Made by a program: the position numbers and the translations under genes. The notes under the pieces are model-generated. The model was not told the DNA's origin. It saw only the letters and a program-made list of their open reading frames with translations, and made no database searches. Shown here in pieces: positions 15,904-55,684 of a stretch of DNA of 64,000 nt (the stretch's first letter is position 1; each line of letters opens with the position of its first letter). The DNA lies in NCBI GenBank assembly GCA_043228905.1, contig JBHGNT010000008.1, positions 20,584,001 to 20,648,000 of the forward strand, given 5' to 3'. The stretch is from Azolla caroliniana. Its lineage: Eukaryota; Plantae; Polypodiophyta.

Positions 15904-16409
15904 TGTTGTTGGGGGGGGGGGGGGGGGGCGTGAAGCCTAGAATGGCTTCACCCCCCTCCCAAGGGGATTAAGTTAGAGAGAGAGCTAGAGAGAAAGACAA
16001 ATACACAAAGACACCAAAATGAGAGGGAAAAATGCCTATCCATTACATGCCCCATAAGGGGTTTATAAAATGTAACTGTAAATAATGACCGTTACACTCT
16101 TGTCACATGCACAATTATGTGCATGTGCTCACACATACTCATCTTCACACTCATATACATTACACATACCGAACAACCCCTTCAACGTGTTTTACCCTTA
16201 TACCGTCTCGTACAACTCCTACGGGTAACACATGGCATGCTTGTGGGACAGTGCATCGCACGGTGAACCCACTCGCTATGGAAACTATTTAACAACTGGA
16301 ACTCCATAGGTTGTCTCAACGGTCGGAAATCCGTCGACCGGATCATAGCTTGACACGAACCTTCTCATTCGGTCAACATGTCGCTCATGTCATGAACACA
16401 TGACCATTA

Positions 16410-16477
16410 TGGCGTCACCCGGACTTGAACCTCGAACCTTGTAATTCATACTTGAAAACCTCAACCATTAAGATAGC
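16410..16477 (-). other. tRNA-like cassette in LTR (second copy at 18878-18945)
   Basis: Minus strand reads gcTATCTTAATGGttg...gaGGTTCAAGTCCgggtgacgCCA: A-box-like, B-box and CCA at tRNA-like spacing. The cloverleaf is degenerate. Confidence 0.7.
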
Positions 16478-16852
16478 TTATTGTTATATGAAACAATAAA
16501 AGCTACTTCTTGTATTACATTGATTATTGTAAAAACTCTAGATTATTCTAGAATGTTCTAGAATGTCCTAGAGCATTCTAGGTCTAGAACATTCTAGAAC
16601 ATTCTAGAAATCTCTAAGCTATTCTATAGGAACCTATAAATAAGTGCATACATGTATTCTCAAATCAATTCGAATCAACACTAGTCTTTAGCTCTCATTA
16701 CATATCTTGTATCTATACATCCATTCTTCTCTATCCTTCTTCCATCACTCTATCTTTTATCCTTGGTTCTGACAGTTTGATTTGAATTCTCTCTCTCTCT
16801 CTCTCTCTCTCTCTCTCTCTCTCTTATCCTCCTTTGTAACCATCCCGAAACC

Positions 16853-17425
16853 ATGGTTGCCATTAACTCAGAAGAATATCTCACCCTTGTTGCAGAAATG
16901 GAGAACCTTAAATCCAAGTTCGCATCTCTTGAAGTAGAGAATCAACGTCTACTTGGGGACCTACAAAAGGTTACTATAGAGAAGCAACAACAACAAGAGG
17001 AGTTCACGCGACGAGTGCAACAGTTAGAGTCGACAATCGTCGTGTTACAACAACAAAGGGTTGAAGGTCAGGGACTTATCAAGGAGCCCAAAATTAGCCT
17101 CCCAGCTAAATTTGATGGGTCGAGGGCGCATTTCTGAGGTTTTTTGAATCAAGTATGGTTGGTGATTCAAATGCATCCCGCACGTTATCCAACAGATGCA
17201 TCACGAGTCGGGCTAGTGGGCACTTTATTGACTGGCATAATGTTGTCGTGGTTTGCTCCATTGCTAGAGACCAATTCTCCTCTACTGAATAATTTCGAGG
17301 AATTTATCAAGGAATTTAAGGCTTGTTTCGGAGATACTGATGGGGCGAGAACAGTTATCAACAAGATTCGTACACTTCGTCAAGGTGATCAACCAACTTC
17401 AACATATGCTGCCAATTTTCGTCTC
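16853..17425 (+). pseudogene. Gypsy gag (capsid), one in-frame stop, C-terminus deleted
   Basis: Coiled-coil N-terminus, EPKISLPAKFDGSR, LSWF, LRQG..YAANFR. Confidence 0.85.
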
Positions 17426-17459
17426 CGAAGCGGCACATTGCCAGGGTCATCTCAACATT

Positions 17460-52387: not shown

Positions 52388-52762
52388 CCAAACCAAACTA
52401 TTTAATAAAAACTTTAAACCTAACCATTTAAATCTAACTAAATAAACAAAAATGCATTAAACTAAATAAACATTTAAGTTAAATTTATTAAATCAATAAA
52501 AGAAACTTTAATTGACCCATTAAATTAAATAAACATTTAAGTTAAATTAATTAAATCAATAAAAAACCATTAATTAAGACATTAAATTAATAAACTATTA
52601 ATGTAAAAAAAAAGTTAACCAAAAACCTATAAACCTTTAAACATGAGTTTTAGAACCGAACCGAACCATTTATCGAAAATCCAAACCAAACCAAACCAAA
52701 AAACCGTTGAACCATGGCTTAATAGTTCGGTTCGGTTTGAGCCGAAATAGTGCCCATTGCTA
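52388..52762. mobile_element. One end of a probable hAT-type MITE / AT-rich DNA element replacing Gypsy gag and part of the 5' LTR
   Basis: Clusters of aaccg/ccaaa repeats, cggttcggttt, and terminus gtgcccattgcta (reverse complement tagcaatgggcac). The other end is not visible. Confidence 0.5.
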
Positions 52763-52840
52763 CCAAAGTAATTTGCAATATAAATGAATTTCCTATAGTG
52801 AAATAATAAATGAAAATAATATTTTGCATATTATGATGGA

Positions 52841-52905
52841 TGGTTTAATGGTAAGGGTTCAACCCATGTAACACAAGGTCATGGGTTCAAATCCTTTTGG
52901 AGCCA
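52841..52905 (+). other. tRNA-like cassette in Gypsy LTR, antisense to the element (second copy at 49178-49242)
   Basis: TGGTTTAATGGtaag...atgGGTTCAAATCCttttggagCCA. Confidence 0.7.
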
Positions 52906-55236
52906 TATCCTGACAACAACGATGCTTCTCTATGGGGTGGTAGCATCCCTAAATATATTTGGAAAGGGTTTGAAAATGGCCAAAAACATTTTCTTACAAA
53001 GTTTCTACAAGATAAGAAACAAATGCCATACATCCTTGTCCTAGAGACAGGATCACTTCCCATTCAGATCTTGGCCATGAAAGGGTTCTTGAATACATGT
53101 TTAAGGTTCAAAAAAATCCCTCACATCAACTTCCTAGAATTGCATGGGAAGCAAGCAAAAAGATCCAAAAGACACATAAAAGCAAAATTTCATGTTCTAG
53201 TTGGATGCAAGATATGAAAAATTGGTTTGGTACATGGGATGCAACACATTTGCTTCATGATGCATCACTAGATTCCTCTATAAATGAGGCCTTTTTGCAA
53301 CCCCAATGTATCATGACATGGAAAAAATGTGAAGGCTCATGCTTCATACATTATACTACACATGTTGCACCTAACCACAAAACCGTATTCTTCGTGAAAT
53401 AGGGAAACCGTACACATCGATACATATTAGAGCCCATTTCGATGGCTTCTATTCGAACCATTCCTTCCATGTGACTTAGCTCACATGCATTGAGATGTGA
53501 GACGGGGTGTTGGTGCACAAGTGATGAGAGTGGTTGACTATGCACACTTTCCCTTAACAAGTTCAAGTGTCTGAGTATCACACTTTGATACAATGCTTTG
53601 ACTTTGATCATATTCAACCATGCTTTCCACACATCTTCGACCAAGCCCAATCCTTGCACGAATTTCTCTCACAACCACAATGTGCACTCTCAATTACAAC
53701 ATTCATTGGTAAACTTCTTGTCAAACATTGAGAGTTGCTACTCACTTTGATACGTATCATGTGAAATGTAATTTGTTTTGGTCTCATTGGTCATATTTGA
53801 CCTCCAAAGATGATAATATAATCTATCTCTCTTTCTGCCTCTCTCCTTCTTGTGTGTTATAGCTTCTTTTCCCCTTACATGGTATCCGGGCTTTCACTAA
53901 GGGACAAAAAGCAAAGCACAATACAACACATTTTCTTGGATTGATCCGAATATCCAAACAACATGTATTCCGAGTTAGAAAACTTGTCTTCATTCACATC
54001 CAACAAAGCACAAAATCAGAACCTCCTATCATCAACATCCAACAATATTACAAGGAGCTATTTGGTAGAGAAACTTACAAATCACAACTACCTGATGTGG
54101 AAGACAAGGATGGAAATTTGAAAGAGGTAGTGGATGGTTCAATGAGCATTCCAAATATTGAAAATGAACTGAAACATTGGAAGAGTAGAGATTTATATGC
54201 TACAATGGATATCATAATGCACCTCAACGACAAATAAATTGATCATGTTCGTGATTTGGAGACTGTACAACAAATGTGGGAGTATCTACACAAACTCCAC
54301 AAACCTTCTAATGGAACAACAAAAATATTCATCAGCAAATGGAAGAAAAAACTAGATGTGGCAATCACAGTAGGCAACAACATAGACGAGACTGCAAAAT
54401 GTGAGATTTTTATGGGAGCATTACTTTCATCCTAGGCAACAACATAGATGAGACTGCAAAATCTAATTTGCTGTGGCCACAAACCACACCTAGGACATCC
54501 ACACATGTTTGGATGCATTGCATACAGTCATATTCCTCAAGATAAATTAAGGAAGTTGGATCCTCATGCAAGGAAATGCATCTTGACGAGCTACATGGAG
54601 AAGTGTCCGGCATAAAAGTATACAAATTATTTGACCTACATACAAGGAAATTTCTTTTTAGCCTATCTATCACTTTCGATGAAGCGACACTAATGAAGCA
54701 GCACACAAACCATGAGGTACATCATCTAAATGAGAACTCTAAAAATGAACTAACATTTCCTAGTGATTCTTAGATTGTAAACTATGGTGGCCCTATTACA
54801 CGAGATCGATCTAGGTGCCTACAACAAAACAAATTTAAAGCAAAAGGAAATCAACACAATATCCAAATCAAGTATTTTGCAAACAAAAACATACTAATGC
54901 AAAGAGATTGGAATAACGAAGCAATGACAAATCACCCAAAATTGATAAACTCGAGTGGCCACAACATAGCTAAATTAGAAAAATCATTATGGTAGCCACA
55001 ACATATTCAAACAAAAAGTGATGGCATATCTCAAAGTGATGACAACATGCTTGAATCAAAAAGTGATGGAGCGGAAATATTTAGTAATTGCAATATACTT
55101 GCTGCAAATGATGATAATTTCAGATCTGAGTCGAATGACGGCAATATAATTAGATCTACGACAAACAAGGACAACATAATCAGATCTGAAAAATCAAGGT
55201 ATTCATCCACAAAACATAATCAGATTTGAGATAAAT

Positions 55237-55684
55237 TGTCAAGATTCGAACTCTTGACACGACCATGTTATAATCTAGTATTATGAGTTAACCAAGATAT
55301 CTTAGTACTAGTTATGTATGTAATTGGTCCTTATTATTTTGCTAGCATCATGTGCGACCATGTTATAATCTAGTATTATGAGTTAACCAAGATATCTAGT
55401 ACTAGTTATGTATGTAATTGGTCCTTATTATTTTGCTAGCATCATGTGCATAGTTGCTCCCTTGTAGTATTTACACTTGGCACATGCATGCATACCTACA
55501 TGCTCTATTGTAGATTCACATGCATGCAACAAGTATGCATGCCATGTAGTATAAATAGAGGAGTTCACCTTGAAGGAATTCAAGGTGAACAACACTAGTT
55601 ATGGAGTCTTTCCTTTAATACTATCTTCTTTCTTGTCCATTTGGTTATCTTCTTGCTTGTCTCTTGAGTTTATGATCCGTGACA
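55237..55684 (+). mobile_element. Solo LTR with internal ~95-bp tandem duplication
   Basis: TGTCA...TGACA termini, TSD TAAAT, TATA at about 55550; duplicated block at 55260-55354 and 55355-55448. Confidence 0.85.

What the first reader, a model, noticed from the sequence alone, without database searches (positions are those of the whole stretch)
16388..55684. Four different LTR families each carry an antisense tRNA-like (Pol III box) cassette at the start of the LTR
Seen: LTRs that otherwise look unrelated by eye (16388/18856, 44728, 48307/52915, 55237) all have a B-box-like GTTC(A/G)A(A/G)TC within the first ~130 bp, always antisense to the inferred element orientation. Three also have an A-box at tRNA-like spacing, and two end in CCA. 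I saw no such cassette in the Copia LTRs here. Known: Cassandra TRIMs carry 5S rRNA-derived sequence in their LTRs, and TFIIIC-bound B-boxes can act as chromatin barriers. Inference: this may be a lineage-wide LTR module (outward-facing Pol III promoter, TFIIIC insulator or tRNA decoy) rather than chance SINE insertions. I cannot tell from the sequence whether it has already been described.
Basis: partly seen in the sequence, partly recalled or inferred. Interest (0 to 1): 0.8.

Follow-up and report, generated by a model that had tools for sequence, protein, structure and literature searches.

The report
Backwards tRNA promoter in retrotransposon ends
A whole branch of protein-coding jumping genes, in what is probably a fern, carries a backwards, decayed tRNA gene at the start of each terminal repeat, where the two promoter boxes and their spacing have survived but the tRNA fold largely has not, so it likely serves as a docking site for the host's tRNA-transcription machinery.

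Summary
Real, and wider than the window. A scan for 16 universal tRNA positions ranks five LTR cassettes top in 64 kb (A twice, C twice, B). Four match all 16; shuffles average 0.03 such matches. D has only a B-box. A and C are not unrelated: both are Tf1/Tcn1-like chromoviruses. Of 67 scorable LTR starts from related elements, all 14 of their group carry the cassette antisense, against 2 weak hits in 53 others and none in sense. Those placed on an integrase tree form one clade, and six loci keep an intact pol. In 12 of 12 LTR families the A-to-B spacing is 44-45 nt. Box positions are 81% identical, against 35% in the anticodon arm; stems show no covariation and there is no shared terminator. 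The 'CCA' is the acceptor-stem end, not a tRNA tail. Best reading: one old tRNA capture kept as a TFIIIC/Pol III landing site beside the element's own promoter; binding and function are untested. Closest known: Helenus, which is sense-oriented and non-coding. No description found in 10 literature searches.

The parts
16388..16774 (+). Element A 5' LTR (TG...CA, 387 nt); 5-nt target duplication shared with the 3' LTR's right flank
   Evidence: LTR pair has 3 mismatches in 387 aligned nt plus 22 gap columns
16410..16482 (-). tRNA-derived cassette of A, 5' LTR (A-box 16465-16475, B-box 16422-16430)
   Evidence: all 16 universal tRNA positions present; T8-G53 distance 45
16635..16678 (+). Pol II TATA box (16635-16641) and predicted self-primer at the transcript start (16667-16678)
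   Evidence: 12 nt complementary (1 mismatch) to the site after the LTR, 32 nt from TATA
16775..16788 (+). Self-priming primer-binding site (Tf1 type, not tRNA-primed)
16853..18871 (+). Broken gag, integrase, SH3 and chromodomain remains of A; no RT or RNase H piece lies between gag and integrase
   Evidence: Pfam hits Ty3_capsid, Integrase_H2C2, rve, SH3_Tf2-1, Chromo; ORF map
18843..18855 (+). Polypurine tract of A
   Evidence: sequence
18856..19264 (+). Element A 3' LTR
   Evidence: contig depth rises at 18854 and falls after 19271
18878..18950 (-). tRNA-derived cassette of A, 3' LTR (B-box 18890-18898)
44728..45517 (+). Solo LTR B (790 nt, 4-nt target duplication, lineage unknown, orientation inferred), inside a decayed LINE-like stretch
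   Evidence: termini; depth edges at both ends in 4 runs
44829..44900 (-). tRNA-derived cassette of B (A-box 44883-44893, B-box 44841-44849)
   Evidence: score 21.4; Rfam tRNA 12.8 bits over the full model; E 1e-5 to a profile built without it
48307..49254 (-). Element C 3' LTR, decayed start, with about 460 nt of another LTR inserted (48412-48870)
49171..49242 (+). tRNA-derived cassette of C, 3' LTR (antisense to the element; B-box 49222-49230)
   Evidence: 16 of 16 positions
49255..52145 (-). Polypurine tract and broken RT, RNase H, integrase and chromodomain of C
   Evidence: Pfam RVT_1, RT_RNaseH_2, rve; chromodomain read in translation
52778..52915 (-). Remaining start of element C 5' LTR; 5-nt target duplication with 48307
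   Evidence: 89.5% to the 3' LTR over 124 nt
52834..52905 (+). tRNA-derived cassette of C, 5' LTR (A-box 52841-52851, B-box 52885-52893, T4 at 52895)
   Evidence: 16 of 16 positions; Rfam tRNA 16.9 bits
55237..55684 (+). Solo LTR D (5-nt target duplication, internal 95-nt duplication), possibly of the same clade
   Evidence: weak match to the clade's TATA/start profile, E 1.6 window-wide
55237..55259 (-). B-box only (55243-55251) in a terminal hairpin of D; no A-box
   Evidence: score 11.1; E 0.12 to the cassette profile

Best explanation
One clade of self-priming chromovirus retrotransposons carries a decayed tRNA gene backwards at the very start of its LTRs, likely captured once and likely kept as a DNA landing site for the host factor TFIIIC (and perhaps TFIIIB/Pol III). 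Shown: position, antisense orientation in coding elements, fixed A-B spacing, conserved boxes, decayed acceptor and anticodon stems, an AT-rich tract just upstream of the cassette, and a separate TATA promoter further into the LTR. Inferred: single origin, selection on the boxes, and factor binding. Inferred further, from yeast precedent: the bound complex would act as a barrier or roadblock between the flanking chromatin and the element's own Pol II promoter about 160 nt away in A; any Pol III RNA made would be a by-product.
For: 14 of 14 scorable group LTRs score 14 or more antisense (10 of 14 score 19 or more); 2 of 53 others reach 14, none 19; none in sense in either set. Placed carriers form one integrase clade, support 1.00, with identities down to 56-61% between intact-looking members. 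Across 12 families, pairwise identity is 81% at 15 universal positions, against 35% in the anticodon arm, 33% in the 3' acceptor strand and 42% in the other T-stem positions; T8-G53 is 44-45 nt in 12 of 12. No covariation on the cloverleaf (98 of 500 shuffles reach the score); acceptor 34 of 84 and anticodon 28 of 60 pairs against about 41% by chance. The 45 nt upstream are 78-93% AT, against 54-69% for the rest of the LTR where more than 200 nt were available; TFIIIB sits on such a tract (PMC13578239, passages). The first T4 lies 10 to 773 nt after G53 in the six window copies, so no common product. The elements have their own TATA and a 12-nt self-primer 32-33 nt downstream in 5 of 5 tested, so the cassette is not their promoter. 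Barrier, insulator and roadblock roles of TFIIIC sites are reported in yeast (PMC4228148, passages).
Against: No binding, chromatin or transcript evidence was obtained. Variable-loop positions 44-47 are the most conserved block (92%), though by my recall they lie outside the canonical B-box; Helenus LTRs keep them too. D- and T-stems pair above background (30 of 48, 40 of 60), partly through box residues, which leaves room for an RNA-level role. Cassette distances do not track integrase distances significantly (Mantel rho 0.16, p 0.30, 9 families), so a single origin is favoured (41% identity at non-box positions against 27% by chance) but not proven. The clade is one evolutionary event from one series of assemblies, so the 14 loci are not independent. 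The AT-rich tract could belong to the Pol II promoter. B shows no kinship outside the cassette and has a 4-nt target duplication.
Confidence: 0.55

Rival explanations
1. The cassette is a true outward Pol III promoter whose RNA matters: antisense RNA across the chromodomain/integrase region from the 3' LTR, or a short tRNA-elbow mimic, regulating the element or distracting host silencing.
For: Full A-box, B-box, spacing and upstream AT tract; D- and T-stems pair above background; the variable loop is kept; in A the first T4 is 773 nt away, across the chromodomain and integrase end.
Against: Terminator position is not shared; no covariation; acceptor stem lost.
Confidence: 0.17
2. The sequence works on the genomic RNA: read in sense, U3 is complementary to the D- and T-arms of a host tRNA and anneals it, as the 3' half of Ty3's bipartite primer site does, to help dimerisation, packaging or strand transfer.
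For: Orientation and place (U3 start, antisense to tRNA, D- and T-arm parts kept) match Ty3, where the T-arm and D-arm of the primer tRNA bind U3 (PMC5371799, passages).
Against: These elements are self-priming and lack a tRNA primer site. Positions 49-52 and 62-65, needed for a continuous duplex with one tRNA, vary (42% identity). The tRNA-length spacer would not be needed.
Confidence: 0.12
3. A functionless relic, or repeated captures of tRNA or SINE heads at the same spot; the shared positions only reflect what all tRNAs share.
For: Non-significant Mantel test; B may be a separate capture; D has lost the A-box.
Against: Box positions are 81% identical while the arm between them has fallen to 35% with almost no length change; fresh captures should show intact stems and none does; no own duplication or tail seen.
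Confidence: 0.1

Closest known systems
Helenus / TRIMp3 (Kojima 2024, PMC10886601; read: abstract, introduction, methods, results, discussion, figure legends, supplement passages)
   Same: tRNA-derived sequence in the LTR with conservation centred on boxes A and B and no working tRNA; 4-5 nt target duplications; one plant case (Selaginella).
   Different: Helenus are non-coding TRIMs of 311-1263 nt, mostly with tRNA primer sites; in the LTR consensus sequences I saw the cassette is in sense and lies in the 3' half, as a presumed promoter. Here it is antisense, at the U3 start, in protein-coding, self-priming elements that keep a Pol II TATA promoter. The paper says autonomous partners must use Pol II and are unlikely to share long LTR stretches; it also notes that 'not a few' Repbase LTRs resemble part of a tRNA but analysed only TRIMs under 1000 nt.
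Cassandra and Ajax TRIMs (as described in PMC10886601)
   Same: Small-RNA-gene-derived Pol III promoter inside an LTR.
   Different: 5S-derived, non-coding, and (Cassandra) drives the element's own transcript; no 5S match here.
Tcn1 clade of chromoviruses (PMC2864245 and PMC6317226, passages)
   Same: Gag, RT, RNase H, integrase, chromodomain; about 400-nt LTRs; self-priming instead of a tRNA primer; known from mosses and lycophytes, and surveyed in ferns.
   Different: The passages found by word search mention no tRNA-like LTR cassette; 51 of 53 other scorable relatives lack it.
Ty3 bipartite primer-binding site (PMC5371799, passages)
   Same: U3 sequence complementary to the T- and D-arms of a tRNA.
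   Different: Ty3 is tRNA-primed and matches one tRNA; these elements self-prime and keep mainly universal positions at full tRNA spacing.
tDNA and ETC chromatin boundaries of yeast (PMC4228148, passages)
   Same: TFIIIC sites acting without regard to an RNA product: barrier, insulator, roadblock.
   Different: Host loci, not carried by a retroelement; such a role is only inferred here.

Membership tests
Helenus / TRIMp3 | tRNA-derived sequence in the LTR with boxes A and B conserved | tested here: met
   (A, B, C and relatives; D only B-box)
Helenus / TRIMp3 | Short non-coding TRIM | tested here: not met
   A (2.9 kb) and C (4.6 kb) hold gag/pol remains; L002, L005, L006, L007, L008, L011 have open pol frames of 1183-1235 codons (L006's LTR is too short to score)
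Helenus / TRIMp3 | Cassette in sense, able to drive the element's transcript | tested here: not met
   0 of 67 sense hits, 14 of 14 antisense in the group; Helenus examples are sense
Helenus / TRIMp3 | tRNA-complementary primer-binding site | tested here: not met
   12-nt self-priming match in 5 of 5 elements tested
Cassandra / Ajax | 5S rRNA-derived promoter in the LTR | tested here: not met
   no 5S match in the window up to E 5
Tcn1 chromoviruses | Gypsy domain order with C-terminal chromodomain | tested here: met
   Pfam; domain order in relatives
Tcn1 chromoviruses | Self-priming, no tRNA primer site | tested here: met
   (A and four relatives; C's site is deleted)
Tcn1 chromoviruses | Placement with named Tcn1 reference elements on an RT/IN tree | not tested
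   no named reference element was among the fetched sequences; the tree holds unnamed loci only
Tcn1 chromoviruses | Solo LTRs B and D belong to the same clade | tested here: inconclusive
   D weak match at the TATA/start region, B none; contig ends gave no primer site or PPT for B
tRNA-derived SINE insertion | Own target duplication, body and tail; patchy presence among copies | tested here: not met
   only a head of about 73 nt at a fixed place in all group members; no tail seen between it and the LTR edge
Functional tRNA gene | Cloverleaf above detection thresholds | tested here: not met
Pol III type-2 promoter / TFIIIC boundary | TFIIIC or Pol III occupancy, transcript or barrier activity | not testable with these tools
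   needs ChIP, nascent RNA or reporter assays
Ty3-type bipartite primer site | 5' site primed by the same tRNA that anneals in U3 | tested here: not met
   self-priming; match to a single host tRNA not testable without the host's tRNA set

The most novel reading that the evidence does not exclude
Autonomous, chromodomain-bearing fern retrotransposons carry their own portable TFIIIC/Pol III boundary at the outer edge of each LTR, captured more than once (the A/C clade and family B). They thereby shield their promoter from silent chromatin and scatter thousands of Pol III factor sites, and many of the unexplained tRNA-like sequences reported in a fern genome, across the chromosomes.
Probability: 0.3. 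Interest if true: 0.85.

Novelty: new variant of a known kind. Interest (0 to 1): 0.68.

Why it matters
Small-RNA-derived promoters in LTRs were described for non-coding mini-elements, where they are thought to drive transcription. Here one sits backwards in protein-coding elements that already have a Pol II promoter, so it must do something else. If it binds TFIIIC, it gives a direct plant test of whether a retrotransposon can carry its own chromatin boundary. It may also bear on an open annotation puzzle: one fern genome is reported with about 7,500 tRNA genes and over 10,000 tRNA-like sequences, ascribed to duplication and repeats (PMC13578239; bioRxiv 10.1101/2021.12.21.473619; passages). 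Whether such LTRs contribute is simple to check; the host of this window was placed only as probably a fern.

Tried and rejected
No whole genome was held, so the genome-wide LTR survey could not be run. ARAGORN at lowered thresholds was uninformative (44 to 366 calls in 64 kb). Rfam found no tRNA in the whole window or in 13 loci, only in short stretches of B and C. No RNA holder was listed for element A; this is no evidence on expression. Laying contigs on B did not show a primer site or PPT among the listed loose ends (24 of 795 shown). Contig depth is not used as copy number. A conserved CAA start motif was looked for and found in only 3 of 12 families. L070 looked by eye like a separate case but scored 13.9 and did not match the cassette profile: rejected. 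L029 and L032 (17.0; one family with tandem repeats) did not match the profile either: treated as chance. The Fisher p-values are not used, because the loci are related. A cassette pattern in viral contigs gave 3 hits, 2 on ARAGORN-called tRNA-like genes of undetermined type: no source isotype. 'CCA tail' and 'four unrelated families' were rejected. Structure prediction and complex prediction were not used. Supplements of bioRxiv papers were not seen; the text supplements of PMC6786969 gave only annotation-term hits for 'tRNA'. Repbase entries could not be searched and may already note this feature.
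Full report
Setting. The window is repeat-rich plant DNA with no tRNA gene called and no whole genome on hand. A chitinase in it has its best named single-domain matches in a fern (59-60% identity, against at most 58% for seed plants), so the host is probably a fern; it was not identified further.

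The four LTRs. A is a whole element: LTRs 16388-16774 and 18856-19264, TG...CA ends, 5-nt target duplication, 3 mismatches between the LTRs. Inside are broken gag, integrase, SH3 and chromodomain, with no RT or RNase H. C lies on the minus strand (48307-52915), has a 5-nt duplication, broken RT, RNase H, integrase and chromodomain, and LTRs 89.5% alike over the 124 nt they still share. A and C are relatives: LTRs 66% over 244 nt (E 5e-8) and internal DNA 68% over 1354 nt. B (44728-45517, 4-nt duplication) and D (55237-55684, 5-nt duplication) are solo LTRs; B's ends are confirmed by contig depth in 4 of 4 runs.

Is the cassette real? I scanned both strands for 16 universal tRNA positions (recalled textbook positions 8, 11, 14, 15, 18, 19, 21, 48, 53-58, 60, 61, with tRNA-like spacing). 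The five best sites in 64 kb are the two A copies, the two C copies (all 16 matched) and B (21.4 of 24.6). In 150 dinucleotide shuffles the mean was 0.03 perfect sites (maximum 2) and 0.19 sites of 21 or more. Eight control LTRs or LTR-like repeats reached at most 11.1, the same as D, which has only a B-box in a terminal hairpin.

How far does it extend? An alignment of chromodomain regions fetched 99 loci (80 metagenome, 1 viral, 18 from prokaryote bins). An LTR start was called for 75 (PPT plus TG; five set by eye), 24 had none, 8 were under 100 nt, and 67 were scored. Fourteen belong to the window's group. All 14 score 14 or more in antisense and 10 score 19 or more. Of the other 53, 2 reach 14 (L029, L032, one family) and none 19; none reaches 14 in sense in either set. 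On an integrase-chromodomain tree of 80 of 101 sequences (21 dropped for under 230 aligned residues), A, C and 13 loci form one clade with support 1.00. Ten of the 14 carriers are placed there; L010, L014, L016 and L061 were dropped and are assigned by LTR likeness. Integrase identity between L022 and the intact-looking members is 56-61%. Six loci of the clade have open pol frames of 1183-1235 codons, so the cassette rides in autonomous-type elements. Caveats: these loci come from one series of assemblies with neighbouring accession numbers, several are probably collapsed repeat contigs, and the clade is one event, not 14. Family A also has contigs in runs labelled organisms B and C.

Anatomy. 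In the clade the LTR reads: TG, antisense cassette (within the first 7-105 nt), AT-rich tract, variable stretch, TATA, transcript start. In 5 of 5 elements tested, 12 nt after the LTR are complementary to a stretch 32-33 nt after the TATA start (0-1 mismatch). This is Tf1-type self-priming, predicted for Tcn1 elements (PMC6317226, passages), and it fixes the orientation independently. Across 12 families (11 of the group plus B), T8-G53 is 44-45 nt in all. Pairwise identity is 81% at 15 universal positions, 92% at variable-loop positions 44-47, 42% in the other T-stem positions, 35% in the anticodon arm and 33% in the 3' acceptor strand. The cloverleaf shows no covariation on 20 aligned copies. 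Anchored counts give acceptor 34 of 84, anticodon 28 of 60, D 30 of 48 and T 40 of 60 pairs, with about 41% expected by chance. The 45 nt upstream of the cassette are 78-93% AT. A CAA motif is present in 3 of 12. The first T4 lies 10 to 773 nt after G53 in the window copies.

B and D. A profile built from 16 clade cassettes, without B, D, L022 and L070, finds B at E 1e-5 but D only at E 0.12 and L022 at E 0.24. Outside the cassette B matches no clade LTR, and D matches the TATA/start profile weakly at the expected place. B may be a distant member or a second capture; its 4-nt duplication hints at another integrase family. This is unresolved.

Mechanism. What survives is largely what a factor reading every tRNA gene would need: both boxes, their spacing and an AT-rich upstream tract, where TFIIIB is placed (PMC13578239, passages). 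What a tRNA product would need has decayed, and there is no shared terminator. The cassette points away from the element's own promoter, so it cannot make the genomic RNA as proposed for Helenus. I therefore infer a TFIIIC (perhaps TFIIIB/Pol III) landing site at the outer edge of U3, about 160 nt from the TATA box in A, acting as barrier or roadblock as such sites do in yeast (PMC4228148, passages). Confidence 0.55. Against it: no functional data, the unexplained conservation of positions 44-47, above-background pairing in the D- and T-stems, and a non-significant match between cassette and integrase distances (rho 0.16, p 0.30). Rivals are a functional antisense Pol III RNA (0.17), a Ty3-like tRNA-annealing site in U3 (0.12; PMC5371799, passages) and a relic or repeated capture (0.10).

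Novelty. Helenus (PMC10886601; parts 1-4 of 6, legends and supplement passages) is the nearest kind, but three defining features fail: non-coding TRIM, sense orientation and tRNA priming. Ten full-text searches (listings only, except the papers cited as read) turned up no description of an antisense A/B-box cassette in Tcn1 LTRs. Subscription journals and Repbase notes are not covered, and Kojima remarks that other Repbase LTRs resemble tRNA parts. A mosquito element with tRNA copies at its primer site is a different arrangement (PMC3286476, passages). Earlier scan notes held no look-alike sequence; word hits were Helenus cases and antisense tRNA-like units inside fungal elements, unchecked. 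One fern genome is reported with about 7,500 tRNA genes and over 10,000 tRNA-like sequences; a link to such LTRs is a prediction only. Verdict: new variant of a known kind, interest 0.68.

Noticed in passing
window 16775-16788 and 16667-16678; L002, L008, L011, L022: The self-priming site and transcript start co-vary between families (two sequence types, each complementary over 12 nt, 32-33 nt from TATA). Novikova 2010 found no priming mechanism for the Selaginella Tcn1 element.
   Followed up: yes
window 17138-17533: Element A runs from gag almost directly into integrase, without RT or RNase H, yet has nearly identical LTRs: likely a non-autonomous derivative moved in trans.
   Followed up: partly
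L002 4200-9244, L008 4039-6483, L011, L022: The 3' LTR is followed directly by the primer site and gag of another unit (84-86% identical in L002 and L008): tandem elements sharing an LTR, or collapsed assembly.
   Followed up: no
window 16536-16616 and 19004-19084: A's U3 holds a palindromic array of short CTAG-containing repeats that can form a long hairpin; also in L001, L002 and L014.
   Followed up: no
window 25067-30469: A young Copia element (open 1052-codon pol frame, minus strand, LTRs nearly identical) is inserted in a transposase-like frame (24360-25066 and 30470-31839, hAT-like by my recall).
   Followed up: no
window 11155-12002, 32695-33102, 38527-39322: Duplicated family-19 chitinase gene pieces; best named single-domain relatives are fern proteins.
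   Followed up: partly
window 4536-5767 and 45634-48300: Two decayed copies of a LINE-like element in opposite orientation, about 90% alike; B and C sit in or beside the second.
   Followed up: no
window 40157-40184: A lone, degenerate variable-loop plus T-arm look-alike (E 0.039 to the cassette profile), not tied to a recognised LTR.
   Followed up: partly
L029, L032, L024 first 135 nt of the LTR: Tandem repeats with a B-box-like word in antisense (scores 12.6-17.0) in a separate chromovirus clade; no match to the cassette profile.
   Followed up: partly
L082-L099: 18 chromovirus-like matches lie in records filed as bacterial or archaeal genomes, probably eukaryotic contamination of bins.
   Followed up: no
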